From a phage: a stretch of 64,000 nucleotides of DNA. The position numbers and the translations under genes are program-made. Position 1 is the stretch's first letter, and each line of letters opens with the position of its first letter. Under the pieces are notes generated by a model. It ran no database searches and was not told the DNA's origin. It saw only the letters and a program-made list of their open reading frames with translations. This document shows positions 35,642 to 54,236 of this stretch, piece after piece. The stretch is taken from the NCBI GenBank assembly GCA_036253055.1, contig GCA_036253055.1_4124.1; one strand, 5' to 3'.

Positions 35642-35661
35642 AATGTTTTACTCCTAAAGGT

Positions 35662-35722
35662 GCGGGAGAACTATTCCCCCGCTCTATGTAAAACATTATA
35701 CATTATCTTGTAGTACTGTCAA
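35662..35722 (-). promoter_or_regulatory. Class-1 cassette (TTGACA-N16-TATAAT + GTTTTACAT + hairpin CGGGGGAAtagTTCTCCCG)
   Basis: Read on minus strand. Confidence 0.6.
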
Positions 35723-35729
35723 ATAGTTT

Positions 35730-35987: not shown

Positions 35988-36062
35988 TATGTTTCCCCTT
36001 GTAGTTAGTAAAGTTATTACATCAGTACTATCACGCATTGTCAATAGTACTGAAATAAAACT

Positions 36063-36287
36063 TTAGATTAGATTATTGATGCCGTTGATGGTAGACTCGC
36101 TTTCTTCTTTCTCCCATTGGCGGTAATACTTCCATGCTTCATGATAGGTGGCGATCAGTTCATCTTTTTGATCCTGAGTACATGCCAGTACTGAATCACT
36201 GTAAGCGGTGTTATAGATAGAATCAAATGATTTCTTCTCTTCTGCCAGGGTAGCTACTTCCCGCATCAGTTCATCAAAGTTAGCCAT
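36063..36287 (-). CDS. Hypothetical protein (74 aa)
   Basis: SD AAGGAG; cassette upstream. Confidence 0.6.
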   Translation of the reverse strand: MANFDELMREVATLAEEKKSFDSIYNTAYSDSVLACTQDQKDELIATYHEAWKYYRQWEKEESESTINGINNLI

Positions 36288-36306
36288 TTTAGTACTCCTT
36301 ATTAGT

Positions 36307-36363
36307 GGGGGAGGATATCTCCCCCTATGTAAAACATTATACTTTGTTTTACTTACAATGCAA
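36307..36363 (-). promoter_or_regulatory. Class-1 cassette (TTGCAT-N16-TATAAT + hairpin GGGGGAGgatatCTCCCCC)
   Basis: Read on minus strand. Confidence 0.6.
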
Positions 36364-36370
36364 GTACTTT

Positions 36371-36562
36371 TTAAATTTTATTTCCGATATAGTCCGGCCT
36401 GTTCTTTTCGGTCATACGCTTAAGCATTTTTTGCATATGGCTTATTGCTTGTAGTGTATCCTCTTCCAGCGATGAATCAAGATAATCAGGATCATTCTTC
36501 ACCTTACAATGATTATGATAGCGTAGTACTGCCAGTACTTTTTTAACTTCTTCTACTGTCAT
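36371..36562 (-). CDS. Hypothetical protein (63 aa)
   Basis: ATGA overlap with upstream gene, co-transcribed. Confidence 0.5.
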   Translation of the reverse strand: MTVEEVKKVLAVLRYHNHCKVKNDPDYLDSSLEEDTLQAISHMQKMLKRMTEKNRPDYIGNKI

Positions 36563-36831
36563 AATAAGTATTCCACTTCGTTTGCTTTCAGGTTAGTATC
36601 AATCATCAGTGGTTTTTTGTAGTCCACAAAACGATTAGTTTTCTCGATAGCGAAGCCCATATAATCCAGTTTGCTTACAGTACATTCATTCTTAAAAACT
36701 TCTTTCGCTGCATTGATGGCTGATTCAATTGATAACCGCCCATCTAAATTAATGTTACCAAATGATCCACCAGCAGAAGTAGGATTACCGTTCATATCTT
36801 TAATAATCATAGTAGCGGAGTAGCTGGACAT
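36559..36831 (-). CDS. Hypothetical protein (90 aa)
   Basis: SD AAAGGAAA; cassette upstream. Confidence 0.6.
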   Translation of the reverse strand: MSSYSATMIIKDMNGNPTSAGGSFGNINLDGRLSIESAINAAKEVFKNECTVSKLDYMGFAIEKTNRFVDYKKPLMIDTNLKANEVEYLL

Positions 36832-36852
36832 AATTTTGTTTCCTTTTATTGG

Positions 36853-36912
36853 TGGGGAGAGCTATTCTCCCCTTGATGTAAACTATTATACAGTACTGAT
36901 ATACTTTGTCAA
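36853..36912 (-). promoter_or_regulatory. Class-1 cassette (TTGACA-N16-TATAAT + AGTTTACAT + hairpin GGGGAGAgctaTTCTCCCC)
   Basis: Read on minus strand. Confidence 0.6.
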
Positions 36913-36915
36913 TAC

Positions 36916-37137
36916 TTAATTACGTTTAAAATGATATGTACCGTTATCATCCTGTACGCCCCATACTGATTTACCATCAACACCAGTGAAGCCGGATTGT
37001 AATTCAATATGGAAACCGTTAGCATCAACGACGAAAACTTTTTTATTTTCATCCCGATAGCATTGATATTCTTCACCTGCTTTAAATGCTGCATCATTCA
37101 GAAGATTTGAAGCGTGAACGCAGGTCATAGTAGTCAT
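36916..37137 (-). CDS. Hypothetical protein (73 aa)
   Basis: Start moved to ATG 37137 (MTTMTC, SD AAAGGAA); track N-terminus MFYIERG... is translated cassette. Confidence 0.6.
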   Translation of the reverse strand: MTTMTCVHASNLLNDAAFKAGEEYQCYRDENKKVFVVDANGFHIELQSGFTGVDGKSVWGVQDDNGTYHFKRN

Positions 37138-37160
37138 CGTCTTGATTCCTTTTAGTACCA

Positions 37161-37220
37161 GGGAGAACCATTTCCCCCTCTCGATATAAAACATTATACG
37201 CTCATTGAGATAGTTTGCAA
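37161..37220 (-). promoter_or_regulatory. Class-1 cassette (TTGCAA-N16-TATAAT + hairpin)
   Basis: Read on minus strand. Confidence 0.6.
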
Positions 37221-37224
37221 GTAC

Positions 37225-37360
37225 TTTTTATAAAATAGTTTTCAGTACTGAATACTTATATAATAGATACACTTCCGCACCCTATGGGTCAGTGAGTTAT
37301 CTCTCAATGAATATATAATAGCAAAGGGACTGACTGGAGTCAATCCCTTTTTTAATCTTT
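37225..37360 (-). repeat. Intergenic repeat copy B (conserved element + intrinsic terminator)
   Basis: Element CCGCACCCTATGGGTCAGTG; terminator GGGACTGACtggaGTCAATCCC + T6. Confidence 0.6.
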
Positions 37361-37361
37361 T

Positions 37362-37946
37362 TTATCGTGTTATAGTTATCGCGTTAACATCACGTTTTTT
37401 ATAGTACTGATTCCAGATATTGCGGGTTAAACCGTAATCAAGTACTTTAATCAAGCCGTTGCGATCCTGGCCGATATTCTGTTTTCTGATATCTCTTATC
37501 GTTAGTGTGGATAATGTATCATCAACGTGATTGAGAGCATCAGCGAAATGGTGATGGCGTTCTACCGTATTACGTTTAATATTGTACTTTAACTCATTGC
37601 ACGCGTTTACATGCTTTACACTGCCTTTGCTTGCAGTACTCAAACGATCCATAACAATAAACAGATTATCAGGATCGCATAAATGCATATGCACTTTAGC
37701 AAAGTACTGTTTAAGGTGCGGACGGTCATAATCTAAAAAATTCCATACCTTACATTCAGTTTCATTTTGTTCTACACCCGCATCACAATTCGCGACCTTA
37801 ATCACTAACCGATCATTTAAAGCGAATACAATACGGGAAGAACCCGCACCGACGATCTCCAGTCCAGCTAACCGACAAGCTGAAAGGATCTCTTTGTTGG
37901 TTTCCATTGCATGAAGTGAACGGATGAATTTAGTATAGTTACGCAT
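37362..37946 (-). CDS. Putative protein-kinase-like protein (194 aa)
   Basis: Gly-rich loop VGAGSSRIVF, beta3 Lys in LVIKVA, catalytic-loop-like DIRKQN, DFG-like DYG; SD AAGGAG; start at ATG 37946. Confidence 0.5.
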   Translation of the reverse strand: MRNYTKFIRSLHAMETNKEILSACRLAGLEIVGAGSSRIVFALNDRLVIKVANCDAGVEQNETECKVWNFLDYDRPHLKQYFAKVHMHLCDPDNLFIVMDRLSTASKGSVKHVNACNELKYNIKRNTVERHHHFADALNHVDDTLSTLTIRDIRKQNIGQDRNGLIKVLDYGLTRNIWNQYYKKRDVNAITITR

Positions 37947-37977
37947 TGTGTTGACTCCTTGAGTTAATGAAACTATA

Positions 37978-45041: not shown

Positions 45042-45188
45042 CTATTTTTTAGATTTACGCAAACTTTCTACCATCTCAGGAGTAAGGCCAGGCGGGTAGG
45101 AAACCACTTCATCAACGAAACGTAAAGGGAATACCCCAGCGAAAGGTGAACGTGCTTTCTTAGTATTACTCTTTTTTGATGCTTTCAT
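45042..45188 (-). CDS. Small basic protein (48 aa); paralog of 39497-39631
   Basis: Not in track; MKASKKSNTKKARSPFAG...DEVV; SD AAGGAA. Confidence 0.45.
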   Translation of the reverse strand: MKASKKSNTKKARSPFAGVFPLRFVDEVVSYPPGLTPEMVESLRKSKK

Positions 45189-45207
45189 TTCATATTCCTT
45201 AATTAGT

Positions 45208-45267
45208 GGGGAGAATCATTTCTCCCCTTCATGTAAAACATTATACGCGTTTAAAAACTAATTGCAA
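45208..45267 (-). promoter_or_regulatory. Class-1 cassette (TTGCAA-N16-TATAAT + hairpin GGGGAGAAatgaTTCTCCCC)
   Basis: Read on minus strand. Confidence 0.6.
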
Positions 45268-45467
45268 GTACTATTTGAAAGTAAATGCTCATACGCTGCA
45301 TTAACTACGTTTTCAATAACCGACTGTACAGAAAGATCCCCCACGTCCTGGCTATAGTAGAAATCGCTTACAGTGGTGTCATCGTATGCAAATACTTTAC
45401 CAGGTACTGCATCAATCACATACATATTAACCTTTAAGATGTCGATCTTATCCTGTACAGTAAGCAT
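45258..45467 (-). CDS. Hypothetical protein (69 aa)
   Basis: SD AAAGGT. Confidence 0.5.
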   Translation of the reverse strand: MLTVQDKIDILKVNMYVIDAVPGKVFAYDDTTVSDFYYSQDVGDLSVQSVIENVVNAAYEHLLSNSTCN

Positions 45468-45472
45468 ATTAA

Positions 45473-45745
45473 TTAACCTTTTAAGTACTGGCTTAAGTAG
45501 TCTTGTTGATCTTCGGTGATTGCAGCCATCTTCCCTAGTACTGGATTGATGATATAATCCCCTGTAACGTCCTGTAACGCATTCTCAGGCGGTTTAACGG
45601 CTGGGGTAGCCATAGCCATTGCCTGGACTTGTTCGACGCTGTAACGCTCATAAAGGCGGCATTCTTCCGGTGTTAACATAGCATCAGTACGCTTCATCGG
45701 TTTAATGATGCTTTCGATCTCATTCAGTACTTGATTAACGTTCAT
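45473..45745 (-). CDS. Hypothetical protein (90 aa)
   Basis: SD GGGGA. Confidence 0.55.
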   Translation of the reverse strand: MNVNQVLNEIESIIKPMKRTDAMLTPEECRLYERYSVEQVQAMAMATPAVKPPENALQDVTGDYIINPVLGKMAAITEDQQDYLSQYLKG

Positions 45746-45796
45746 GGTATAATCCCCAATATAAGCGGCCTAAATCGACCGCTAACGATGTTTTGA

Positions 45797-46066
45797 TTAA
45801 TAGGTGTATGGTTGACGCTCAAACAATGAATAGACGTTATACGCCCCGCTTATGGGCTTCGCTGGTAAATCAATTTTATATTGTTCACGCTTAAAGATAA
45901 TAAAACGGCAATTGTTTTTAACATCAAAATTGATTGAACGTTCCAGGAGTTTACCATCGTGCACAAATACAAGATAACCGCTTGGTACTTGTTTTGTAGA
46001 ACTGGTTGCAACCATAGACCGACGAACATGTGTACCTGCATCGATTAAAGTACTGATATTTTTCAT
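45797..46066 (-). CDS. Hypothetical protein (89 aa)
   Basis: SD AAGAGGAT; 7-bp inverted repeat ATGCAGA-N15-TCTGCAT upstream. Confidence 0.55.
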   Translation of the reverse strand: MKNISTLIDAGTHVRRSMVATSSTKQVPSGYLVFVHDGKLLERSINFDVKNNCRFIIFKREQYKIDLPAKPISGAYNVYSLFERQPYTY

Positions 46067-46146
46067 TTTACTATCCTCTTAAGTTGATTTAATTTCTTTC
46101 TCCTATGCAGACACTATATCAAAGTATCTGCATAAAGTAAAGCTAA

Positions 46147-46470
46147 TTAAAGATCTTTTTTGCGTTTAACATTCTGTACAGTACAATGCAACGGGATATT
46201 AAGATCATTGCACAAACGATAGAGGGAGGTTTCAACAGTATCAAGCCCGTCTACTGATTCCTTTAAGAGTGATACCGCCGTTTGTTGATATGCATCCTCA
46301 TAGCCATAAGTAAATGATTCAACCGCCAGATCATTCAAGCCGTTATCCAGTTCAACGCTTACATGACAAGAATGATAAGTATTGCCATATGAATCAGTCC
46401 AACGTTTACCGTCAACATTGATTGCATGGATTGCAGCCAGGGAAACGGTGTTGATGATAGTTTTAGCCAT
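46147..46470 (-). CDS. Hypothetical protein (107 aa); paralog of 39086-39409
   Basis: SD AAGGAA; class-2 promoter upstream. Confidence 0.6.
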   Translation of the reverse strand: MAKTIINTVSLAAIHAINVDGKRWTDSYGNTYHSCHVSVELDNGLNDLAVESFTYGYEDAYQQTAVSLLKESVDGLDTVETSLYRLCNDLNIPLHCTVQNVKRKKDL

Positions 46471-46561
46471 TTTAGTATTCCTTAAATTAATATGTGTCGT
46501 CTTGATAAAATCTATTATGCCAGTACTATCAAACTATGTCAATAGTACTGTGATAATATTT

Positions 46562-46774
46562 TTACTTACTTTCTTTCGCTGCTTTATATGTTGCCACTGC
46601 CATAACCACATCAGCACGAACAAAGTTTTTAACCGTGTCACTGTAATAATTGATCGCATCATCTATATCTGCGAACGTCCGATACATACCGCACCAAGAT
46701 ACTTTATAACCTTCTTTCACTTCTACCAGTTTAACGATAGTCTTGTTAACTTTGATTTTAGTAATGATAGCCAT
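46562..46774 (-). CDS. MAII-family small protein (70 aa)
   Basis: Start moved to ATG 46774 (MAIITKIK, SD TGAGGAAAC); track start MVLP is the cassette hairpin. Confidence 0.55.
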   Translation of the reverse strand: MAIITKIKVNKTIVKLVEVKEGYKVSWCGMYRTFADIDDAINYYSDTVKNFVRADVVMAVATYKAAKESK

Positions 46775-46794
46775 TTTAGTTTCCTCATTATCAG

Positions 46795-46852
46795 GGAGAA
46801 CCATTTCTCCCCTTGATGTAATGTATTATACTTTATTCGATTTACTTTGCAA
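46795..46852 (-). promoter_or_regulatory. Class-1 cassette (TTGCAA-N16-TATAAT + hairpin)
   Basis: Read on minus strand. Confidence 0.6.
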
Positions 46853-46861
46853 GTACTTTTT

Positions 46862-47089
46862 TTAATTTAATTCATCCAGGCAAAGGATACGCTCAACGCC
46901 CAAATCAGTTAAACTAATCGACGGCACTTGATAGGTTTCAATGTATGCTACACTTGCCCACTGACCGAACTCATTAACGGCCCAGGTATTCATTGCATTT
47001 TGCAATTCCGCACCTGCCTTGTTAGTAATGACTGCAACTACTTGTTCGTTGCCAGTAGTACCAGATACGCGAGTAATGATAATAGCCAT
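46862..47089 (-). CDS. MAII-family small protein (75 aa)
   Basis: Start moved to ATG 47089 (MAIIITRV, SD AAAGGAA). Confidence 0.55.
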   Translation of the reverse strand: MAIIITRVSGTTGNEQVVAVITNKAGAELQNAMNTWAVNEFGQWASVAYIETYQVPSISLTDLGVERILCLDELN

Positions 47090-47112
47090 TGTTTTGATTC
47101 CTTTGATTTGGA

Positions 47113-47172
47113 AGGAGAACCGTTTCCCCCTCTCGATGTAAAACATTATACGCTAATCTCTTAATCGTGCAA
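47113..47172 (-). promoter_or_regulatory. Class-1 cassette (TTGCAC-N16-TATAAT + hairpin)
   Basis: Read on minus strand. Confidence 0.55.
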
Positions 47173-47216
47173 GTACTTTTTATTACTTTTTGCAAAATAC
47201 TTTAAACGCTCTCAAT

Positions 47217-47307
47217 CGCATTCTAACGACCTTAACGCCACCAGCTAGGGCGATGTATCAGATAATCAGTTTAATGCGTTAGAATCGATTCTAGGCGGTG
47301 CTGGTGG
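47217..47307. repeat. Interleaved inverted repeats (CGCATTCTAACG / CGTTAGAATCG and CCACCAGC / GCTGGTGG)
   Basis: Two inverted-repeat pairs arranged A-B...A'-B' between a terminator and the next promoter. Confidence 0.5.
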
Positions 47308-47324
47308 ACTGGAATACTACAGAC

Positions 47325-47352
47325 ACAAAAAAGCCCACTGTTTAAGGTGGGC
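47325..47352 (-). terminator. Intrinsic terminator (GCCCACcttaaacaGTGGGC + T6)
   Basis: Hairpin then TTTTTT on minus strand, 20 nt after stop at 47375. Confidence 0.7.
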
Positions 47353-47374
47353 TAGTGATTCAGTACTTTAATTG

Positions 47375-47857
47375 TTATGCTTCAACTTTGCGATGAGCTT
47401 CGATCCATTCCTCGCGAGTCATACCGCTTTCTTTGATAGCGTCCAGTACTACCGCAATGCAGTTACCGCGTACAGGAATCAAATGTTCTTCCCCGTTATC
47501 AAGGACAACAGTAACACGTTCTTGAATCCATTTTTTAGGCTTAGATTCCGGCTTATCTTCACCGTACTTAACCGCCAGGGCTTTATGTGCCATTTCAATA
47601 ACCACTTCCAGATCTAAACCAGACACCGCCGCCTGAATACTTTCTATTGTTGCTTGCAGTTCTGCTTCACGGGCTTTTTTCTGTTCTTCCAGTTCTGCTA
47701 CCTTTTTGGCTTGTAGTTCTTTCGCTTCACTGTAAGCAATGTTAAAATTGTTGCGTACTGCTTTCATGGTATCATTATCCAGGTCAGCCAGCAATTCAGC
47801 AGCAATCACAGTATCGTTAGAAATCAGTGCTTTCAGAAATGATTTTACATTAGCCAT
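47375..47857 (-). CDS. Hypothetical coiled-coil protein (160 aa)
   Basis: Start moved to ATG 47857 (MANVKSF, SD GAGGAT); Lys/Glu-rich heptad-like segment; strong terminator downstream. Confidence 0.6.
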   Translation of the reverse strand: MANVKSFLKALISNDTVIAAELLADLDNDTMKAVRNNFNIAYSEAKELQAKKVAELEEQKKAREAELQATIESIQAAVSGLDLEVVIEMAHKALAVKYGEDKPESKPKKWIQERVTVVLDNGEEHLIPVRGNCIAVVLDAIKESGMTREEWIEAHRKVEA

Positions 47858-48049
47858 TTTATAAATCCTCAATTAAAGTTTAAGTTAGTTTATCAAAGTT
47901 TGTTTGACGTGTCCAGTTTTTCATTCGACTTACTGGCGGTCTACTTAATGTTCCCCGTCTTGATGTAATACATTCTACGCTTTTCCCTGGTAATGTCAAC
48001 TACTTTTTTAAAACTATTTTCAAAGTATACCAGTACTACGATACTACAA

Positions 48050-48078
48050 AAACAAAAAAGCCCACTGTATAAGTGGGC
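48050..48078 (-). terminator. Intrinsic terminator (GCCCACttatacaGTGGGC + T6)
   Basis: Near-duplicate of terminator at 47325; follows stop at 48097. Confidence 0.7.
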
Positions 48079-48096
48079 TAGTGATTCAGTACTATA

Positions 48097-48396
48097 TTAT
48101 AAACAATTAATTACGCCAGTGAATGTAACTTTCTCTGTATCCATTACAGTAACCGAACCGCGTTTACTTTTTGCATCGTAATAGATGGTCGTGCTACCCT
48201 GATCATCTTCTTCATGGTACGGGCCATTAGCAAACATTGCAGGGGCCAGTTCCAGGGATTTGGTAACGATCTCAGCCGTTTCCTCGTTAGTCATTGCAAC
48301 AGTGCACTGAATGAATTTTTCTTTCTGTACATCAACGGAAGCGTTAACAGCGAAAGAGGAAACAGATAAAGCCAGGGCGATGATTGCAGTTTTCAT
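48097..48396 (-). CDS. Putative secreted/periplasmic small protein (99 aa)
   Basis: N-terminal signal-peptide-like MKTAIIALALSVSSFAVNA; SD AAAGGAT; own promoter and terminator. Confidence 0.6.
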   Translation of the reverse strand: MKTAIIALALSVSSFAVNASVDVQKEKFIQCTVAMTNEETAEIVTKSLELAPAMFANGPYHEEDDQGSTTIYYDAKSKRGSVTVMDTEKVTFTGVINCL

Positions 48397-48418
48397 TTGT
48401 ATATCCTTTGTTAGTACT

Positions 48419-48474
48419 AGGGAGTATTCCCGATTAGATGTAAAACATTATACGCGTTTAAAAACTATTATCAA
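48419..48474 (-). promoter_or_regulatory. Class-1 cassette (TTGATA-N16-TATAAT + GTTTTACAT)
   Basis: Read on minus strand; weak hairpin. Confidence 0.5.
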
Positions 48475-48507
48475 GTACTTTAATATAAAAGTATTTGAAA
48501 AAAAGTC

Positions 48508-48640
48508 TTGACAACTGCATCCAGTACTGGCATAATATCTACATAAAGACGAGATAGTCACTAACCCACAGGGTGCATAGATCCGTCTATTAAATGATTC
48601 AGTACTGCAAAATAAAGGGGATCGTTTGATCCCCCTGATT
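48508..48640 (+). ncRNA. Candidate plus-strand small RNA (class-2 promoter + CACTAACCCACAGGGTGCA element + terminator hairpin)
   Basis: TTGACA 48508-13, CATAAT 48531-36, element 48559-77, hairpin GGGGATCgtttGATCCCC 48617-34; no ORF; opposite to all local genes. Confidence 0.35.
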
Positions 48641-48641
48641 A

Positions 48642-48863
48642 TTACTTAGTAAGATATAAACAAAAATCACCTTTCTTTGATACTCCGCAAGTGTAACGCG
48701 ATGAATAGTTAGAAACGTCTTGTACTTCTGCAATGACGAGCGTATCATCATTTAACTCATCGCAAAAACATACTGCGGGATCTTCTACGCCGATATTGTC
48801 GGCATGTTCCCGCATAGATTTAACCAGTGCTTCAAGCTGGGAAAGAGTAGTGATATTAGCCAT
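48642..48863 (-). CDS. Hypothetical protein (73 aa)
   Basis: SD AAGGAG; cassette upstream. Confidence 0.6.
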   Translation of the reverse strand: MANITTLSQLEALVKSMREHADNIGVEDPAVCFCDELNDDTLVIAEVQDVSNYSSRYTCGVSKKGDFCLYLTK

Positions 48864-48882
48864 TGTAAAACTCCTTATTAGT

Positions 48883-48941
48883 GGGGAGAACCATTTCCCC
48901 CTTGATGTAAACTATTATATAGTACTGGAAACTATTTGCAA
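48883..48941 (-). promoter_or_regulatory. Class-1 cassette (TTGCAA-N16-TATAAT + hairpin)
   Basis: Read on minus strand. Confidence 0.6.
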
Positions 48942-48947
48942 GTACTT

Positions 48948-49136
48948 TTAATTAAATTCCATAAAATCATTTTCAACGTGCACAACAATCTGATTATTTT
49001 TAAAGGACGCAGAAAACTCTATACAATCATAAACCGCTTTTTCTGTTACCAGACTATGAGCACCAATCGGATTAATTGGGGATTGAATTGTTTCAATCTC
49101 GTTACCCTGCTCATTTACAATTAAAATATTAAACAT
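48948..49136 (-). CDS. Hypothetical protein (62 aa)
   Basis: SD AGGAG; promoter TTGCAA-N16-TATAAT. Confidence 0.55.
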   Translation of the reverse strand: MFNILIVNEQGNEIETIQSPINPIGAHSLVTEKAVYDCIEFSASFKNNQIVVHVENDFMEFN

Positions 49137-49210
49137 TGTCGTTACTCCTGGATAGTGTTAACTCGATGTAAACAATTATACAGTACTGGAAACTAATTGC
49201 AAGTACTTTT

Positions 49211-49414
49211 TTAATTTAATTGCTTTAAAACAAAATCAAAGACACCACGCACATCATTGATCATCGCCTGGCGGTTAGCAGGTAACGCATCAGGATCGCC
49301 ACTATCCCAGGCATTAATGAAGCCACTTAAATCATGGAATACTTTATTCCGTAACCCGATCAACTGCAATTCTTTTTCTTCAAGCTCTTTGATACGTTCA
49401 ATTAAATCACTCAT
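49211..49414 (-). CDS. Hypothetical protein (67 aa)
   Basis: Start moved to ATG 49414 (MSDLIERIK, SD GAGGAT). Confidence 0.5.
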   Translation of the reverse strand: MSDLIERIKELEEKELQLIGLRNKVFHDLSGFINAWDSGDPDALPANRQAMINDVRGVFDFVLKQLN

Positions 49415-49431
49415 TAGATAATCCTCAGTAC

Positions 49432-49716
49432 TCAATTGTAAGATCCACATCGTTCGCAGTAGTGTTCATCTTCCTCATCTTCTACCACTTGCCCGATGAA
49501 ATGATCTACTTTCGCTTTCAGGTTATTATAATCGTTTTCTACTTCCTGTAAACGTTCCTGGTAGTATTCCAGGGCTTCAACAAATGCAGCTTCCTCTGAT
49601 TTTGCTTGCATCGATAAATTCATCCCGCGTGTTTCATCATATAGCCAAAAACCATCGGTGCATTCAGTTATAGATAACGTGTTAGTCAGTACTTTACTAT
49701 TAATTACTTTGCTCAT
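49432..49716 (-). CDS. Hypothetical protein (94 aa), Cys-containing C-terminus
   Basis: SD GAGGAT; C-terminal HYCERCGSYN. Confidence 0.55.
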   Translation of the reverse strand: MSKVINSKVLTNTLSITECTDGFWLYDETRGMNLSMQAKSEEAAFVEALEYYQERLQEVENDYNNLKAKVDHFIGQVVEDEEDEHYCERCGSYN

Positions 49717-49735
49717 TAGATAATCCTCATTAAAG

Positions 49736-49794
49736 GCGGGAACTATTCCCGCTCTCGATATAAAGTATTATACGTTAATCTAATTACTTTGCAA
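49736..49794 (-). promoter_or_regulatory. Class-1 cassette (TTGCAA-N16-TATAAT + hairpin GCGGGAAtagTTCCCGC)
   Basis: Read on minus strand. Confidence 0.6.
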
Positions 49795-49801
49795 GTACTT
49801 T

Positions 49802-50039
49802 TTAGTGCTTTTTATAAAACATCTCAGCGGTGATATTTTTACCCGTTGGTTGTACTTTATCCAGGATCTTTTGGTGTGCACTACGCCCGAAAGAATAAGA
49901 ACCGTAAACCGTTAGCCAGTAGTCGCCATTTTGGTTTACATGTACCGCACAATAAGGAACGCCCCGCGAATCGTCACCAATGAAGTGTGATACTGTACCC
50001 GTTACGTTTGGCGTTGTAGTTTTGATTTGTTCGATCATT
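49802..50039 (-). CDS. Hypothetical protein (78 aa)
   Basis: Start moved to ATG 50039 (MIEQIK, SD AGGAG) downstream of hairpin GGCGGGGAAtggTTCCCGCC. Confidence 0.5.
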
Positions 50040-50096
50040 TCTCTTACTCCTGGGATATAGGCGGGAACCATTCCCCGCCATTGATTCAGTACTGAA

Positions 50097-50708
50097 TTAA
50101 TATTCGATAGATTCTACTACATCGTCGATAACGTTAAATTGATATTCGTTACCCTCAATCAGTCCTACAATGTTTTCAGTAGTAAACTGGTCTTCATAAG
50201 CATTTTCTAAATCACGGTACAGCTTACAAGATAATTCTCGGATAGTATCAGTCAGTAAGTTTTCCAGATCCTCAGCCAATGCAGCCTGTTTTACAGTTAA
50301 ATCAGTGTAGCGAGTATCAACGCAACCGCCTACCGTGTTTTCGTGAGCGTAGCGTGATTGGGAACGTTCTACACTCATTTCCAAATCATCTTCGTTCAAC
50401 AGGTGACGGATGGAACGATATTTCGTTAACGCCTTAACCTTGCGTAAAAACTTCTCAGCGTCAACGTGGTCAGTACTGATTGATGCACCGTCACCTTGCG
50501 ACCAAAAACCACTGTATTGCAATTCAGCTTCATCTATGCCGTATTCTGGCAGTACTGTTTCTTTATAGTATTCCAGTACTGATTCAGCAAAGAAATTATC
50601 CTCACTTGCACGTTCCCGATCCCGAACCAGTTCGATAGCCGCCGCTTGTTGTTCTGCGTTCAGTTCAGAAAAATCCATAACGAAAGTAGTAGTAGTGATA
50701 GTTTTCAT
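50097..50708 (-). CDS. Hypothetical acidic protein (203 aa)
   Basis: SD TGAGGGT; tandem promoters with structured element X copy 2 between them. Confidence 0.65.
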   Translation of the reverse strand: MKTITTTTFVMDFSELNAEQQAAAIELVRDRERASEDNFFAESVLEYYKETVLPEYGIDEAELQYSGFWSQGDGASISTDHVDAEKFLRKVKALTKYRSIRHLLNEDDLEMSVERSQSRYAHENTVGGCVDTRYTDLTVKQAALAEDLENLLTDTIRELSCKLYRDLENAYEDQFTTENIVGLIEGNEYQFNVIDDVVESIEY

Positions 50709-50778
50709 TTTGTAACCCTCATTCAGTAGTTGATGTAAGTATTATACGCTTTTAAAAACAATTGTCAAACTATTTTAT

Positions 50779-50886
50779 CAGGGGAGTTTTTCGTGTGCCT
50801 TACTCCTGGGCTACTTAACGGGAAGTTACTTATTTCGTTCCCCGTCCTGATGTAAAACATTATACGCCTTTAAACATAGTTTGCAA
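50779..50886 (-). ncRNA. Candidate structured leader/sRNA element X (copy 2)
   Basis: About 90% identical to 39968-40074; frame-disrupting differences argue against a peptide. Confidence 0.35.
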
Positions 50887-50931
50887 GTACTTTTTGAAAA
50901 TAGTTTTTATCTCTTTCATATAGATACATTC

Positions 50932-51001
50932 CCGCACCCTATGGGCTATCGCCTTGTGTCCGGCTTGTAAGTATTATCTCACTAAGCCGGATAACGGTCA
51001 A
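50932..51001 (-). promoter_or_regulatory. Class-2-like promoter (TTGACC..TAATAC) + conserved CCCATAGGGTGCGGG element + hairpin CCGGCTT-N17-AAGCCGG
   Basis: Same promoter-to-element arrangement as 42498-42567. Confidence 0.4.
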
Positions 51002-51007
51002 GTACTT

Positions 51008-51274
51008 TTATTCAAGTACTGCAATCTTTTTAGTACTGTACACAGTAACGCGGTTGCCCTTGCGGTCGTGCTTTATTTCTACCACGCGACGCGATACACT
51101 ATCAGGACGCTTTAAAGCAGATAGCCAGTACTGAATTGATCGGGCTGTACTTTGCTTTACTACGGCCCAACGTTTACCACGTTCAGATTGTACGCCCATA
51201 TCTTTAAACGTTGCCCCGTCCTGGCGTGCTGCAATCCGAGCTAGTTCACGCGTCGCAAAATATGTAATAGTCAT
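51008..51274 (-). CDS. Hypothetical protein (88 aa); paralog of 38591-38986
   Basis: Start moved to ATG 51274 (MTITYFATREL, SD AGGGGT). Confidence 0.55.
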   Translation of the reverse strand: MTITYFATRELARIAARQDGATFKDMGVQSERGKRWAVVKQSTARSIQYWLSALKRPDSVSRRVVEIKHDRKGNRVTVYSTKKIAVLE

Positions 51275-51357
51275 GCTGTTACCCCTATCGTTGATGTACA
51301 AAAAGAACTTTATTATAAAGTACTATCACCGTGCAATAGTACTTTTAATCTATTCTC

Positions 51358-51597
51358 TTACATTCCAACCATCGCCGCACGGATCGCAGTAGTACTATAC
51401 TTAAAGCCGTCCGGTGTTTTATCTTGTCCAGTCTGTTCTAAAAATAGCATCATATGACGGGCCGCATCATTACGATTAGTGTTAGCGGCAATAAAGTCCT
51501 GGGCCAACCGGTATAATGATTCGTCGTTATTAATCCAAAGGCTTACATTCCATTGAGTTTTGTTTTTGTGTCCTAAGAACATTTTTGATTTAGCCAT
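51358..51597 (-). CDS. Hypothetical protein (79 aa)
   Basis: Start moved to ATG 51597 (MAKSKMF, SD AAGAGGAT). Confidence 0.55.
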   Translation of the reverse strand: MAKSKMFLGHKNKTQWNVSLWINNDESLYRLAQDFIAANTNRNDAARHMMLFLEQTGQDKTPDGFKYSTTAIRAAMVGM

Positions 51598-51618
51598 TTT
51601 TAAATCCTCTTTATTATA

Positions 51619-51677
51619 GTGGGGAACTATTCCCCACCTGATGTAAAACATTATACGCTTTTAAACTTAGTTTGCAA
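51619..51677 (-). promoter_or_regulatory. Class-1 cassette (TTGCAA-N16-TATAAT + hairpin GTGGGGAAtagTTCCCCAC)
   Basis: Read on minus strand. Confidence 0.65.
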
Positions 51678-51691
51678 GTACTTTATTAAAC

Positions 51692-52054
51692 TTATTCGTA
51701 AATCTTGCCACTGTCAGCCCATACCAGGAAACGAGGCATATTATCCCATGCATCTTGTTTTAAGTTTAAGCCGTGTAATACTTCTGTACTTTCCATTCCT
51801 GGTACTGGCTTGCTATACACTGCAAACATTTCGCCCATGTACTGATAAGCCATCGTTAAATCAGTCTGGATCATCTTATGGATCATTGCATCCAGCATTG
51901 CAGTAGCGGCATACTGTTCACGCTTAAGCGGCAGCATTGCAATCAATTCCCGATAAGCTGCAATGTGAATCCGTACAGTCTCAGCGGGAAGATCTTTCAT
52001 CTCTTCACGGAAAGAAACCAGGTTAAGCATGATAGTATTGATTTGAGTCGCCAT
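51692..52054 (-). CDS. Hypothetical protein (120 aa)
   Basis: Start moved to ATG 52054 (MATQINT); first gene of the middle module. Confidence 0.55.
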   Translation of the reverse strand: MATQINTIMLNLVSFREEMKDLPAETVRIHIAAYRELIAMLPLKREQYAATAMLDAMIHKMIQTDLTMAYQYMGEMFAVYSKPVPGMESTEVLHGLNLKQDAWDNMPRFLVWADSGKIYE

Positions 52055-52077
52055 CGTTTTAATCTCTTTTAAAGTGT

Positions 52078-52137
52078 AGCGGGAAGTGTTCCCGCTCTCG
52101 ATGTAAAACATTCTACACCTTTCCCAATACTTTGCAA
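52078..52137 (-). promoter_or_regulatory. Class-1 cassette (TTGCAA-N16-TAGAAT + hairpin AGCGGGAAcacTTCCCGCT)
   Basis: Read on minus strand; most upstream cassette of the module. Confidence 0.6.
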
Positions 52138-52879
52138 GTACTTTCTACAAATACTTTTAAAATAGTTTTCTTTCTATATAGGGGAACTATCTTTCAGTAC
52201 TGCAACCATCCAGGGGAACTATCTTTCTATATAGTAGTACTATGATTCAGTACTGAATCAATCCACCAAATCATCCCGATACCCCGTAAAACGGCCTCAG
52301 ACGCATTCTAACGCATTAATACACCTAAGCTATACATTTGCACCATTCCAATCATTCCAGGGCTTTACAGGCCGTTTAAACGCGTTAAATTATTTTCAAT
52401 TATTTTGTTTTTAGCTATTGACTCAGTACTAAAAAAGCGTATAATTACTACATAGACGCGAGAAAGCGGATACCCCAGGGGGTGGGAAGATCCGTCCAAA
52501 ATTCAAGATATAAAAAAAGGATACACTCCCGCACCCTAGCAGGTTAACGCACTTTCTCAGTACTGAATTATAGTACCATAGTCCGGCCCAGGATGGCAAG
52601 CAAATTAATTAAAACTTTTTTCATCCAGGGTATTGCTTTATTTTTCCAGTACTGTATAATAGTTCCATCAAGTCGAGAAAGACTCAAGCCCACCGGGTGC
52701 ATAGTTACGCCCAAAATTCAGTACTGAAAAAATTTTTAAAAATATCCGTCCAGGCCGTTGACATTGCCCCCAGTTTATAAGATAATGATTCCAGATTCAG
52801 AAAAATCTAACTCCAGATACTGCGGGGAAACTATCCCCACGCGGTAGGGGAACTATTGGAAAAAACAAAATAAAATTTT

Positions 52880-53040
52880 GATTTAGCCGTCTATACTTCC
52901 AGACGTGTAACCATCTAGCCGTTTAGCCGTCCAAACGTCTAGCAATCCAGCCATCCAGAAATCTAGCCGTTTAGCCGTCTAGATGGATAGCCATCTTTAC
53001 TTCCAGACTTCTGGAGGGCTAGACATATCTACGTCCAAAA
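52880..53040. repeat. GC-richer block of short direct repeats (TAGCCGTTTAGCCGTC x2, CCATCCAG, TCCAGAC) with small hairpins
   Basis: Visible direct repeats; AGATGGatagCCATCT and CCAGActTCTGG palindromes. Confidence 0.5.
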
Positions 53041-53193
53041 TCCACCCAGGGTAACTACGCCCAAAATCCGTCAGTACTATACCATAGATCTATCTTTTGA
53101 AAGGGAGTATTCAGTACTGTCATCATAGCCCTCACTATGTTACCCTAGGAGGATGAAGACTATCATGTAGTACTGAATACTGTTAGAGGGAAT

Positions 53194-53213
53194 CCACCAG
53201 CACAAGCTGGTGG
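53194..53213. repeat. Perfect palindrome CCACCAGCacaaGCTGGTGG
   Basis: 8-bp arms; same CCACCAGC motif recurs at 47.24 kb, 35.30 kb and 40.12 kb. Confidence 0.6.
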
Positions 53214-53700
53214 CATAATGCTTTAGATTAAAATCAGTACTGACACCATTCTGTTAATATCAGTACTGTTATTACGATTTTCATATGAGGTTCAAAAAGA
53301 TGTACCACCACAGGAGGAACTATCTTTTCTGTACTGTCTCACGACAGGAGGTAGAGTAAATGAATTGTTCGCAGCAACTCATCACCCTATGTAGAACATT
53401 ATACAGTACTGAATCATAATGTCAATAGCTTTCTTTCATTATTCAGTACTGAAATCGTATAATCTGTATCGCTACAAAACTCATTATATCCCACAAATCC
53501 TATATGTCCCAACGTAAATTTCAACTTTCGAAGATCCAACTTTTATTTCATAGGTACTCCAAAATTTTTAGGATCGAGATTTAGGATGGAGTACTAACCA
53601 ACTTTTTGCTGGAGCCTCAAGGGGTAATTGAATTTTACCCCGAAGGGTAAAAGGGTAATTGAAATTAAGGTGAAAGTAATAATTCAGTACTAATCATTGC

Positions 53701-53729
53701 GTGATTACTTTTGATTACATTTGATGTAA
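53701..53729. repeat. Iteron cluster 1: TGATTAC-like repeats at exact 10-bp spacing (x3)
   Basis: TGATTACTTT TGATTACATT TGATGTAATT. Confidence 0.55.
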
Positions 53730-53867
53730 TTTGCAAAATGGAAAAGGAGCTTGGAAACTACAAAGTACGGCAGACTTCCTCTGCCTACTTAGTGGCATAT
53801 CAGTACTGCTACGTTCTTGATTAAACGTGAACATTCCTGTACTCTAGTACTCACTACTGATCACTAC

Positions 53868-53929
53868 AGTGATTATAAATGATTACTTAAATGTTTATAT
53901 ATGATTACTTATGACTACCTATGATTACG
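53868..53929. repeat. Iteron cluster 2: ATGATTAC(TT) repeats (x5, 10/22-bp spacing)
   Basis: gtgATTATaaATGATTACTT...ATGATTACTTATGACTACCTATGATTACgg. Confidence 0.55.
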
Positions 53930-53978
53930 GGGTTTAGCCTGGGGAGAATCCTAGTGATCGCATTTGTCCAGGCTGAAT

Positions 53979-54001
53979 TTTAACATATGCAACATATGTT
54001 A
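53979..54001. repeat. Perfect 10-bp-arm palindrome TTAACATATGcaaCATATGTTAA
   Basis: Directly downstream of the last family-C gene; possible operator or terminator. Confidence 0.55.
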
Positions 54002-54044
54002 AAGCCTGTATAATGCTTCCACTACGGAGCTTCCCCTAGCTATA

Positions 54045-54236
54045 TTACTTCCTATATATAATCATTAAGATATAGTAGTACTGATTATACTGTACATTCT
54101 CTTTAATATTATAAGGGTCTATAGCAATCTCGGTACATCTGTTAAATGCATATCTATTAAATGCCAGTGGAATTATAGATCTAATCCATACTTGTTCATT
54201 TTCTTTTAGTTTACTTATATAGAAGTTTTTATACAT
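54045..54236 (-). CDS. Family-C paralog (~60 aa)
   Basis: MYKNFYISKL...YYYILMIIYRK. Confidence 0.55.
   Translation of the reverse strand: MYKNFYISKLKENEQVWIRSIIPLAFNRYAFNRCTEIAIDPYNIKENVQYNQYYYILMIIYRK

What the first reader, a model, noticed from the sequence alone, without database searches (positions are those of the whole stretch)
52150..54040. 1.9-kb gene-free, repeat-dense block between two gene arrays: candidate origin of replication or packaging/control site
In an otherwise tightly packed genome this block has no SD-supported ORF. It contains helical-phase iterons (TGATTAC-type repeats at exact 10-bp spacing at 53701-53729 and 53900-53929), a GC-richer field of TAGCCGT/CCATC/TCCAGAC direct repeats (52880-53040), perfect palindromes (CCACCAGCacaaGCTGGTGG at 53194; TTAACATATGcaaCATATGTTAA at 53979; GGGGTAAttgaattTTACCCC at 53621), many TTCAGTACTGAA sites and half-copies of the cassette hairpin (GGGGAACTAT). 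Iterons with 10-bp periodicity beside AT-rich DNA are the classic signature of a replication origin or a DNA-bending protein array.
Basis: partly seen in the sequence, partly recalled or inferred. Interest (0 to 1): 0.7.

Follow-up and report, generated by a model that had tools for sequence, protein, structure and literature searches.

The report
Genome-end control region of a jumbo phage
The gene-free, repeat-rich 1.9 kb is the inner end of this giant coliphage's 20-kb terminal repeat: it holds the exact point where the packaged chromosome ends, plus conserved non-coding RNA units and protein-binding repeats. This makes it a packaging and early-control region, with no evidence so far that it is a replication origin.

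Summary

The window is an Asteriusvirus, a PBECO4/121Q/G17-like jumbo coliphage of about 350 kb. Seven independently deposited relatives end or begin at the nucleotide homologous to window 53789|53790. These ends come from PhageTerm or read coverage, and in one phage from restriction digests. So the block is the last 1.6 kb of a 20,171-bp direct terminal repeat (33619-53789) plus about 250 bp of unique DNA.

Both repeat boundaries carry the same cut motif, 5'-CTA^AG, on opposite strands. The motif is kept in three genera. The right cut lies at the base of an 11-bp palindrome and is flanked by 10-bp-phased TGATTAC arrays.

The rest of the block is a module conserved in order across at least five genera of RaK2-like jumbo phages:
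- sigma-70 promoters that drive ORF-free, structured transcripts with covarying stems;
- these transcripts converge on an 8-bp iteron field.

Among close relatives the block is 95-100% identical, more than the flanking genes (86-93%).

Whole-genome GC skew gives no origin signature and the block has no DnaA boxes. An origin is not excluded.

Closest analogues are T5 repeat region 3 and the T7 concatemer junction. Verdict: the packaging/control reading is supported, the origin reading is not. I rate it a new variant of a known kind.

The parts
33619..53789 (.). Direct terminal repeat (20,171 bp in this window). It is packed with small minus-strand early genes, and its last 1.6 kb is the block.
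   Evidence: G17 record: positions 1..20668 equal 350150..370817. G17 position 1 maps to window 33619. DTR lengths of 20,668 to 21,525 bp are reported by PhageTerm or annotated in relatives.
52110..52137 (-). Sigma-70-like promoter (TTGCAA-16-TAGAAT) for the last early gene, 51692..52111. It marks the left edge of the block.
   Evidence: Repeat family D9.
52169..52265 (.). Two 44-nt degenerate cassette copies (TCTTTCTATATAGGGGAACTATCTTTCAGTACTG...). G17 lacks 40 nt of this stretch, roughly one copy.
   Evidence: Repeat family D6. 40-nt gap in G17.
52418..52445 (+). Promoter P1 (TTGACT-16-TATAAT), preceded by an A/T-rich tract.
   Evidence: The promoter is kept in all 10 sequences from the RaK2-like genera aligned.
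52452..52552 (+). Candidate non-coding RNA 1. It has a near-invariant 5' part (AUAGACGCGAGAAAGCGG) and a long imperfect hairpin with an invariant GGGUG/CACCC core.
   Evidence: Found by blastn in RaK2, K64-1, Muenster, XbC2, Munch, fENko-Kae01, Serratia BF, pEa_SNUABM_12 and others. Alignment and consensus fold. 84% of cells paired against 33-47% when partners are slid; covariation score 0.232 against 0.184, reached by 8 of 500 shuffles. Folding z-score -2.8. No conserved ORF and no in-frame start codon.
52633..52660 (+). Promoter P2 (TTGCTT-16-TATAAT, with CAGTACTG in the spacer). A diverged copy of the RNA-1 5' part follows at about 52667-52735.
   Evidence: The similarity to 52452 onward and to 48545 onward is from reading the sequence.
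52758..52786 (+). Promoter P3 (TTGACA-17-GATAAT).
   Evidence: Kept across genera.
52793..52880 (+). Candidate non-coding RNA 2. It has a two-part hairpin at 52809-52837, then a conserved stretch (GGUAGGGGAACUAuUGGAAAAA), then an A-rich tract.
   Evidence: The same fold is predicted in 7 lineages, with upper stems that differ and stay complementary (for example CTGGT/ACCAG, CTAGT/ACTAG, CGGAATA/TATTCCG, CAGGG/CCCTG). The lower stem shows A-U to U-A and U.G to G.U exchanges. Folding z-score -3.2. The wobble pairs fit only the plus strand.
52884..53040 (.). Iteron field: TAGCCGTC-type 8-bp repeats (about 12 copies) with embedded inverted repeats. Related CGYCCAAAAT sites lie at 52497, 52709, 53032 and 53058.
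   Evidence: The same motif sits at the same place in XbC2, Kaldavass and Serratia BF. A different, Fur-box-like motif sits at the same place in fENko-Kae01, Hallingskeid and Muenster.
53185..53391 (-). Candidate leftward non-coding transcript from P4. It forms five hairpins and ends at the CCACCAGC..GCUGGUGG palindrome (53194-53213), which ARNOLD called a terminator in G17.
   Evidence: Minimum free energy -65.2 kcal/mol, z-score -5.6 on the minus strand, against -55.5 and z-score -2.9 on the plus strand. 99-100% identical in four Asteriusvirus genomes. G17 terminator feature.
53398..53425 (-). Promoter P4 (TTGACA-16-TATAAT, 12 of 12 matches, with CAGTACTG abutting the -10 hexamer).
53483..53512 (-). 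Promoter P5 (TTGGGA-18-TATAAT).
   Evidence: Both hexamers are kept in G17, ECO103 and 121Q.
53553..53595 (.). Box conserved across genera: GGTACTCCAAAATTTTTAGGATCGAGATTTAGGATGGAGTACT. Relatives carry AGATTTAGG-type repeats here.
   Evidence: blastn hits near the record starts of XbC2, Munch and fENko-Kae01, and an internal hit in Hallingskeid. Alignment.
53702..53729 (+). Inner TGATTAC array, three units at 10-bp spacing, 60-87 bp inside the end.
   Evidence: 100% conserved in the relatives examined. vB_Ec-M-J has one extra unit.
53763..53790 (.). Terminal palindrome AAGTAcGGCAGActtccTCTGCCTACTT. The chromosome end, 53789|53790, lies at its 3' base. GACTTC sits 11 nt before the cut.
   Evidence: G17 ends at ...CTGCCTACT. 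BF17, vB_Ec-M-J, ELP-22, E9.1, CRJP21 and fEgEco12 start with its reverse complement. DNA fold. GACTTY followed by 11 nt is also seen in XbC2, Serratia BF and Muenster.
53790..53808 (-). Conserved 19 nt just outside the repeat. On the bottom strand it reads 5'-CAGTACTGATATGCCACTA^AG, which I take to be the cut-recognition sequence.
   Evidence: Identical in four Asteriusvirus genomes, after which similarity collapses. Identical in Klebsiella phage Muenster of another genus. The left boundary reads GTCGCTA^AGG. fENko-Kae01 and Muenster boundaries.
53870..53929 (+). Outer TGATTAC array, 5-6 units at 10-bp spacing, 81-140 bp outside the end.
   Evidence: The three rightmost units are conserved and the first two vary.
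53937..54001 (.). Hairpin GCCTGG..CCAGGC (53937-53973) and palindrome TTAACATATGcaaCATATGTTAA (53979-54001), just downstream of the stop codon of the first gene of the roughly 60-aa paralogue array (54045..54236, minus strand).
   Evidence: 53935-53975 is identical in four genomes. The palindrome is not kept in ECO103 or 121Q.

Best explanation
The block is the inner, right-hand end of the phage's roughly 20-kb direct terminal repeat (DTR), plus about 250 bp of the adjoining unique DNA. It has two jobs.

(1) It holds the right physical end of the packaged chromosome.
- The end is made by site-specific cleavage just 3' of CTA on the bottom strand: 5'-CAGTACTGATATGCCACTA^AGTAGGCAGAGG.
- This mirrors the left-end cut on the top strand: 5'-GAAGTCGCTA^AGGTTACC, at 33618|33619.
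- Two identical nick motifs on opposite strands, 20 kb apart, are what Watson-type staggered nicking and fill-in need. That mechanism would give each packaged genome its own copy of the repeat.
- I infer that three features position the T4-like terminase for the end cut when the head is full: the palindrome at the cut, the 19 nt conserved outside it, and the flanking 10-bp-phased TGATTAC arrays.

(2) The other 1.5 kb is an ORF-free cluster of early transcription units read by host RNA polymerase.
- Three units point rightward (P1-P3) and two point leftward (P4, P5).
- They give small structured RNAs and converge on an 8-bp iteron field that probably binds a phage protein.

Shown: the position of the end, the shared cut motif, the conservation of the module across genera, the stems that covary, and the absence of conserved ORFs.

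Inferred: which motifs the terminase reads, that the promoters fire, and what the RNAs and iterons do.
For: End position. The G17 record's right end and the starts of six other independently deposited records (BF17, vB_Ec-M-J, ELP-22, E9.1, CRJP21, fEgEco12) fall on the same nucleotide. The window is identical to them from 53676 to 53808. Ends or repeats were determined by read coverage (G17, PMC6563267), by PhageTerm (Sharanji, 20,668 bp, PMC11895373), and by PhageTerm plus restriction digests (fEgEco12, 20,993 bp, PMC13070987).

Cut motif. All six mapped boundaries in three genera read CTA^, and five of the six read CTA^AG. The 19 nt outside the right end are identical in Asteriusvirus and Muenster.

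Module conservation. The same order of elements is seen in fENko-Kae01, XbC2, Serratia BF and Muenster: RNA-1 unit, RNA-2 hairpin, iteron field, conserved box, end. RNA-1 lies about 1.07-1.4 kb from the record start in many of these records.

RNAs. A covariance model finds further copies in relatives.

Selection. The block is 95-100% identical among close relatives, against 86-93% for the flanking repeat genes.

Precedent. The relative PA5oct has a 39-kb terminal repeat transcribed early, with two abundant non-coding RNAs inside it (PMC7318152).
Against: The ends of this particular isolate were not measured. They are inferred from identity with relatives.

No transcript data exist for any Asteriusvirus in the library searched, so the promoters and RNAs are predictions.

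Support for RNA-1 covariation is moderate. Only 8 sequences were used, and 41 of 500 shuffles reach the observed number of pairs with a change on both sides.

The TGATTAC arrays are specific to the genus. Other genera carry different 10-bp-phased repeats there. Their role in end recognition is therefore an inference.

Apart from CTA^AG and AGTACT-type words, the left and right boundary regions share no motif.

A five-base match between the two boundaries could be partly chance.
Confidence: 0.75

Rival explanations
1. Replication origin. Untranslated transcripts from P1-P3 and/or P4-P5 would form primers or R-loops next to an iteron field bound by a phage initiator. This is the pattern of the T4 R-loop origins (oriF, oriG), the iteron-bearing T4 oriE and the T7 primary origin. 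This reading is compatible with the end function above.
For: The block has gene-less strong promoters, structured transcripts, a G-rich segment followed by an A-rich tract (52838-52885) and then about 12 iterons. The motif of the iteron field differs between genera while its position is kept, as expected for a site that co-evolves with its binding protein. GC skew changes sign at the block, about 4 kb before the genes change strand. These phages have T4-type replication proteins (PMC5259590, PMC7247149).
Against: The whole-genome skew of a relative shows no V shape. The positive stretch lasts only about 23 kb, and the net skew is negative throughout. The block has no DnaA box. The iteron field is the most GC-rich part of the block, at 0.45-0.48. 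No adjacent initiator gene was identified. In T5, the nearest architectural analogue, the origins lie mid-genome and not in the repeat (bioRxiv 10.1101/866236).
Confidence: 0.2
2. DNA-entry control. One version is a pause site for staged genome injection, like the T5 injection stop signal. Another version is T7-like: inward-pointing strong host promoters (P4, P5) at the first-entering end let RNA polymerase pull the co-oriented early genes into the cell.
For: The architecture matches T5 repeat region 3. That region is an untranslated 1.2-kb repeat- and palindrome-dense stretch at the inner end of the long terminal repeat. It overruns into unique DNA by 270 bp (about 250 bp here). It is more conserved than the repeat's ORFs (bioRxiv 10.1101/866236). 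All predicted genes of the repeat point away from the block on the minus strand, the same direction as P4 and P5.
Against: The paired DnaA boxes that define the T5 region are absent. There is no sequence relationship to T5. It is not known which end enters first in these phages. No two-step injection has been reported for them in the papers read.
Confidence: 0.15
3. The block encodes several very small proteins missed by gene callers, as some automatic annotations suggest.
For: Some relatives' annotations hypothetical proteins here. Two micro-ORFs of 19 aa with Shine-Dalgarno-like sequences lie in tandem at 53301-53420. Muenster annotates a 50-aa ORF over RNA-1.
Against: G17 has an 8-nt insertion that truncates the second micro-ORF to 9 aa. 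Over RNA-1, no reading frame or strand stays open in all genera. The most widely open frame begins directly after a stop codon and has no start codon. Insertions and deletions of 40, 16 and 8 nt occur among close relatives.
Confidence: 0.05
4. Decayed remnants of early-gene cassettes with no function.
For: The left edge (52150-52270) consists of degenerate cassette copies with copy-number variation.
Against: The block is more conserved than the neighbouring genes. Its module order is kept across at least five genera, with compensatory changes in the stems.
Confidence: 0.03

Closest known systems
Bacteriophage T5 untranslated 'Repeat Region 3' of the left terminal repeat (contains the injection stop signal)
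   Same: Both are gene-free regions of 1.2-1.9 kb, dense with direct repeats, inverted repeats and palindromes. Both sit at the inner end of a long direct terminal repeat full of early host-takeover genes. Both cross the repeat boundary by about 250-270 bp. Both are better conserved among relatives than the repeat's ORFs (bioRxiv 10.1101/866236).
   Different: There is no sequence homology. The paired DnaA boxes are absent. This block has conserved promoter-driven non-coding RNA units and an 8-bp iteron field. Two-step injection is not known for these myoviruses.
Bacteriophage T7 concatemer junction (terminal repeat flanked by short-repeat arrays SRL/SRR, gene-less promoters phiOL/phiOR, hairpin intermediate). 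Recalled from established literature, not checked here.
   Same: Both have fixed ends with a direct repeat. Both have arrays of short repeats beside the repeat boundary, promoters with no gene near the end, and a palindrome at the processing site. Both need to duplicate the repeat during packaging.
   Different: The T7 repeat is 160 bp, against about 20 kb here. T7 uses its own RNA polymerase promoters, while these are sigma-70 type. The terminase here is T4-like (PMC7247149).
pac sites of P1 (hexamer clusters on both sides of the cut) and SPP1 (pacL-pacC-pacR). Recalled from established literature.
   Same: Clusters of a short repeated motif lie on both sides of the cleavage point, in helical phase, and would suit binding by a small terminase subunit.
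   Different: P1 and SPP1 package by the headful and give permuted genomes, whereas the ends here are fixed. TGATTAC has no GATC, so Dam control as in P1 is not possible. The arrays differ between genera.
Non-coding RNAs ncRNA001 and ncRNA002 in the terminal repeat of Pseudomonas jumbo phage PA5oct (PMC7318152)
   Same: Both are ORF-free regions inside a long terminal repeat that is transcribed early, in the same broad phage group. In PA5oct transcription was measured.
   Different: The PA5oct RNAs lie mid-repeat, not at its boundary. No sequence similarity was tested or is known. Here transcription is only predicted.
Promoter-early stem-loop (PeSL) cassettes of T4-type phages. Recalled from literature.
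   Same: Sigma-70 early promoter plus stem-loop units recur between the small early genes of the repeat (for example 51620-51677). Half-copies of them occur in the block.
   Different: Most of the block is not built from these cassettes. The RNA units, the iterons and the end signals are distinct elements.

Membership tests
Boundary of a direct terminal repeat (fixed physical genome end) | The same sequence is present at both ends of the linear virion genome, and the repeat stops at this point. | tested here: met
   G17: positions 1..20668 are repeated at 350150..370817, and the record ends at the homologue of window 53789. vB_Ec-M-J annotates 'Direct Terminal Repeats' at 1..21525 starting at the same nucleotide.
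Boundary of a direct terminal repeat (fixed physical genome end) | Independent isolates give the same end nucleotide. | tested here: met
   Seven records agree on the nucleotide: G17, BF17, vB_Ec-M-J, ELP-22, E9.1, CRJP21 and fEgEco12.
Boundary of a direct terminal repeat (fixed physical genome end) | Read-start pile-up, doubled coverage or restriction fragments show the end in virion DNA. | not testable with these tools
   Reported for relatives: G17 by coverage (PMC6563267), Sharanji by PhageTerm (PMC11895373), fEgEco12 by PhageTerm plus digests (PMC13070987). No reads are available for this isolate.
Replication origin (oriC-like or iteron type) | DnaA boxes | tested here: not met
   TTWTNCACA has 0 sites in 52150-54040. 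The window has 12, as expected by chance.
Replication origin (oriC-like or iteron type) | Genome-wide switch of cumulative GC skew at the site | tested here: not met
   In OR844650.1 the skew is negative almost throughout. The positive segment that starts at the block lasts about 23 kb.
Replication origin (oriC-like or iteron type) | Iterons next to an AT-rich unwinding element | tested here: inconclusive
   Iterons are present. Only a roughly 30-nt A-rich tract (52855-52885) adjoins them, and the field itself has GC 0.45-0.48.
Replication origin (oriC-like or iteron type) | Supports initiation or autonomous replication | not testable with these tools
   This needs marker-frequency sequencing or a cloned-fragment assay.
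T5-type injection stop region (Repeat Region 3) | Untranslated repeat-dense region at the inner end of the terminal repeat that crosses the boundary | tested here: met
   52112-53789 lies inside the repeat and 53790-54044 lies outside it.
T5-type injection stop region (Repeat Region 3) | Paired DnaA boxes in conserved inverted repeats | tested here: not met
T5-type injection stop region (Repeat Region 3) | Two-step DNA transfer that halts at the site | not testable with these tools
   None of the papers read reports this for these phages.
Known RNA families (Rfam 15) and tRNA/tmRNA | Match to a curated covariance model, or a tRNA fold | tested here: not met
   No match at gathering score anywhere in the window. 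In the block only chance-level matches appear, with E-values of 0.33 or more and scores of 20 bits against cut-offs of 44-70. ARAGORN finds no gene.
Structured non-coding RNA (new family) | A conserved promoter, no conserved ORF, and a secondary structure kept through compensatory changes across lineages | tested here: met
   RNA-2: 7 lineages have differing, complementary stems. RNA-1: moderate support. ORF test. Expression itself was not tested.
P1/SPP1-type pac site | Headful packaging series from the site, giving permuted ends | tested here: not met
   Both boundaries are fixed. The motif clusters that flank the cut are only similar in form.

The most novel reading that the evidence does not exclude
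RaK2-like jumbo phages share an undescribed 'end organiser'. In this reading a T4-type terminase does not cut by the headful. It nicks 5'-CTA^AG on opposite strands about 20 kb apart, and the repeat is then duplicated by fill-in, as in the Watson model. A conserved cluster of early non-coding RNAs and an iteron-protein complex beside the cut takes part in end duplication, in replication priming, or in controlling genome entry. The RNAs would form new families with a cis role in chromosome-end biology.
Probability: 0.3. Interest if true: 0.75.

Novelty: new variant of a known kind. Interest (0 to 1): 0.55.

Why it matters
How giant phages with T4-like terminases make fixed ends with 20-kb terminal repeats is unknown. 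One published analysis of this genus even assumed headful packaging (PMC7247149).

This block gives concrete, testable cis elements:
- a cut motif shared by both repeat boundaries;
- a palindrome at the cut;
- phased repeat arrays on both sides of it.

It also points to at least two conserved non-coding RNA candidates and an iteron field. These are kept across at least five genera that infect Escherichia, Klebsiella, Salmonella, Serratia, Erwinia and Xanthomonas.

In practice it tells annotators where these genomes start and end. It also warns that automatic gene calls in this stretch are probably false.

Tried and rejected
- tRNA/tmRNA and Rfam scans found nothing.
- DnaA boxes: none in the block.
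- Whole-genome GC skew of an unannotated relative: no origin-type V shape.
- CAGTACTG as a fixed element of early promoters: rejected. It abuts the -10 hexamer in about 8 strong promoters, but only 15 of 52 sites have any promoter-like context, against 6.6 +/- 2.4 at random positions. Many sites lie inside genes.
- Shared recognition motif at the left and right boundaries beyond CTA^AG: none of 9 nt or more apart from AGTACT-type words.
- Micro-ORFs at 53301-53420 and the minus-strand ORF over RNA-1: not conserved.
- My idea that the apical loop of RNA-1 co-varies with the iteron type: rejected. Serratia BF combines TAGCCGTC iterons with the other loop motif.
- Exact-match scan of IMG/VR for the terminal 21-mer returned only the 121Q contig, so metagenomic breadth could not be added.
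- MAFFT put the short RNA-2 hairpins out of register. I therefore rely on per-sequence folds and did not make a pair-count table for RNA-2.
- The covariance model of RNA-1 did not recover the diverged copies I read by eye at 52667 and 48545 in the window. Those remain unconfirmed.
Full report
**Identity of the window.** The block and its flanks match 44 phage records at 80-96% identity. Nearly all are Asteriusvirus, jumbo coliphages of about 350 kb such as PBECO4, 121Q, G17, phAPEC6 and Sharanji. Genes left of the block (up to 52111) and right of it (54045-58089) are all on the minus strand. Plus-strand genes start at 58191.

**Check of the observation.**
- The 1.9 kb has no ORF of 60 aa or more. 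The curated G17 annotation leaves the homologous 19041-20933 empty.
- Tandem Repeats Finder confirms 10-bp arrays of TGATTAC-type units at 53702-53725, 53870-53907 and 53900-53928. It also confirms an 8-bp TAGCCGTC array of 12.4 copies at 52884-52982.
- The three palindromes and the GGGGAACTAT half-cassettes are present.
- CAGTACTG occurs 11 times in the block and 52 times in the window, against 0.77 expected.
- The block is not AT-rich.

**The key fact: a chromosome end lies inside the block.**
- The G17 record is linear (370,817 bp), and its first 20,668 bp recur at 350,150-370,817.
- Its last bases...GGCAGACTTCCTCTGCCTACT, are window 53769-53789.
- Six other records from different laboratories start with the exact reverse complement, AGTAGGCAGAGG. 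They are BF17, vB_Ec-M-J (annotated 'Direct Terminal Repeats' 1..21525), ELP-22, E9.1, CRJP21 and fEgEco12.
- The literature gives the basis. Read coverage was used for G17 (PMC6563267). PhageTerm gave 20,668 bp for Sharanji (PMC11895373). PhageTerm gave 20,993 bp for fEgEco12, confirmed by restriction digests (PMC13070987).
- G17 position 1 maps to window 33619.
- So in the window the repeat is 33619-53789 (20,171 bp). The block is its last 1.6 kb plus about 250 bp of unique DNA.
- The window is identical to these relatives from 53676 to 53808. That identity is the basis for transferring the end to this isolate.

**The cut sites.**
- Left boundary, top strand: GAAGTCGCTA^AGGTTACC.
- Right boundary, bottom strand: CAGTACTGATATGCCACTA^AGTAGGCAGAGG.
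- Both 5' ends therefore arise by cutting CTA^AG, on opposite strands.
- The same holds in other genera with PhageTerm-annotated repeats. fENko-Kae01 reads GGTGGCTA^AGGCATG and CTTCCGCTA^TATCTTC. Muenster reads AAGTGCTA^AGCCTAAT and CAGTACTGATATGCCACTA^AGTCCG.
- The 19 nt outside the right end are identical in Asteriusvirus and Muenster, although the two genera share only about 70% identity even in their best-conserved non-coding stretch.
- Within Asteriusvirus, similarity collapses directly after these 19 nt.
- The cut lies at the 3' base of an 11-bp imperfect palindrome, 53763-53790. fENko-Kae01 also ends at the base of a palindrome.
- GACTTY sits 11 nt before the end in four of five genera.
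- TGATTAC arrays lie 60-87 bp inside the cut and 81-140 bp outside it. One relative has an extra unit. Other genera have different 10-bp-phased repeats at that place.
- Identical nick motifs on opposite strands at the two repeat boundaries fit staggered nicking followed by fill-in. That step is my inference.

**The rest of the block is a conserved non-coding module.** Reading rightward, the elements are as follows.
- P1 (TTGACT-16-TATAAT) is followed by a roughly 100-nt element with a near-invariant 5' part and a long hairpin.
- blastn finds this element in RaK2, K64-1, Muenster, RCIP0023, XbC2, Kaldavass, Hallingskeid, Munch, 7t3, SE_PL, PHA46, fENko-Kae01, Serratia BF and four Erwinia phages. 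In many of these records it lies 1.07-1.4 kb from the record start.
- On 8 sequences, 84% of cells pair, against 33-47% when partners are slid. Seven of 20 pairs show changes on both sides. The covariation score exceeds all but 8 of 500 shuffles. I rate this as moderate support.
- No frame or strand stays open across genera, and the most widely open frame has no start codon.
- P2 drives a diverged copy.
- P3 (TTGACA-17-GATAAT) is followed by a two-part hairpin at 52809-52837. All 7 lineages examined keep the same predicted fold, with upper stems that differ and stay complementary. The lower stem shows A-U/U-A and U.G/G.U exchanges. The wobble pairs fit only the plus strand, which points to an RNA.
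- The iteron field follows. TAGCCGTC-type repeats are also found in XbC2, Kaldavass and Serratia BF. fENko-Kae01, Hallingskeid and Muenster have a Fur-box-like repeat at the same place.
- From the right, P4 (a perfect TTGACA-16-TATAAT) and P5 point leftward. The P4 transcript folds at -65.2 kcal/mol (z-score -5.6), 10 kcal/mol better than the opposite strand. It ends at the CCACCAGC..GCTGGTGG palindrome.
- A 43-nt box at 53553-53595 is conserved across genera near the end.
- Among four Asteriusvirus genomes the block is mostly 95-100% identical. 53185-53384 and 53576-53775 are 98-100% identical. The flanking repeat genes are 86-93% identical.

**Origin hypothesis.**
- I fetched a whole unannotated relative, OR844650.1, and profiled its skew.
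- Skew is negative nearly everywhere. It turns positive at 135-155 kb and from the block for about 23 kb, then becomes negative again. This is not an origin-type V.
- The local switch does start about 4 kb before the genes change strand. That remains unexplained.
- The block has no DnaA boxes.
- The layout of promoters, structured transcripts, an A-rich tract and iterons still resembles transcription-primed phage origins. I keep this rival at about 0.2.

**Comparison with known systems.**
- The closest architectural match is T5 repeat region 3. It is untranslated, 1.2 kb long, repeat- and palindrome-dense, mostly inside the terminal repeat, overruns it by 270 bp, and is better conserved than the repeat's ORFs (bioRxiv 10.1101/866236). 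Its defining DnaA boxes are absent here, and two-step injection is untested.
- The T7 concatemer junction and the P1 and SPP1 pac sites share individual features. I recall these from the literature and did not test them.
- PA5oct provides measured non-coding RNAs inside a long terminal repeat that is transcribed early (PMC7318152).
- None of the papers read on these phages mentions this region, its promoters or its RNAs. One assumed headful packaging because the terminase is T4-like.

**Verdict.**
- Of the interpretation, the packaging/control part is supported and the origin part is not.
- The end position itself is implicit in public records.
- Three things appear undescribed: the organisation of the region, the cut motif shared by both boundaries, and the conserved non-coding units.
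- I rate it a new variant of a known kind, with moderate to good interest.

Noticed in passing
whole window; densest at 33619-53808: The palindrome CAGTACTG occurs 52 times, against 0.77 expected. It lies in coding as well as non-coding DNA. 30 of the 52 sites fall at 33619-53808, that is in the terminal repeat or immediately next to it. The motif also recurs in the repeat ends of other genera. Only 15 sites have a promoter-like context, so it looks like a genome-wide DNA-level signal of unknown function.
   Followed up: partly
54045-58089 (minus strand): This is an array of about 20 tightly packed paralogous genes of about 60 aa; it includes a 190-bp tandem repeat at 55323-55752. Its GC skew (+0.14 to +0.23 on the plus strand) is opposite to that of all other minus-strand genes in the window. 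The skew flips exactly at the block, not where the genes change strand (58.1 kb).
   Followed up: partly
33619-53789 compared with its flanks: The terminal repeat has higher GC (0.35-0.42 per kb) than the neighbouring unique DNA (0.27-0.36). The same step is seen in the relative OR844650.1 (300-320 kb).
   Followed up: no
L019 (Klebsiella phage Muenster) 538-562, 1660-1678, 1887-1911, 2078-2197; L009 (fENko-Kae01) about 700-800: In these genera the iteron field and the RNA-1 loop consist of repeats that match the E. coli Fur box (GATAATGATAATCATTATC) at 14-16 of 19 positions. This hints at binding or titration of the host iron regulator. Such sites are absent from this window's block.
   Followed up: partly
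48497-48660: A plus-strand promoter (TTGACA-17-CATAAT) lies between two minus-strand early genes. It is followed by a sequence resembling the 5' part of RNA-1 (GACGAGATAGTCACTAACCCACAGGGTGCATAGATCCGTC) and by a two-way hairpin. It may be an antisense or small RNA unit inside the repeat. The covariance model did not recover it.
   Followed up: partly
51620-51677, and similar sites such as 34927, 35244, 36891, 42546, 49181: Cassettes recur between the small early genes. Each has a sigma-70 promoter, often with CAGTACTG abutting the -10 hexamer, followed by a short GC-rich stem-loop and then the ribosome-binding site. They resemble the promoter-early stem-loop cassettes of T4-type phages.
   Followed up: no
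33643-33772 and 52301-52317: ACGCATT-type repeats cluster just inside the left repeat boundary (3 copies) and at the left part of the block (2 copies, 10 bp apart). The window total is 13, against 7 expected.
   Followed up: no
relative OR699183.1 (Salmonella phage SD-1_S14), 130305-133628: The homologue of the block spans 3.3 kb and not 2.2 kb, so it carries an insertion of about 1.1 kb that I did not examine.
   Followed up: no
literature (PMC7247149) compared: The phAPEC6 paper inferred headful packaging and 'no real physical ends' from the T4-like large terminase. Later data for the genus show fixed ends with a roughly 20-kb repeat. Terminase phylogeny is therefore misleading for this clade.
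   Followed up: partly
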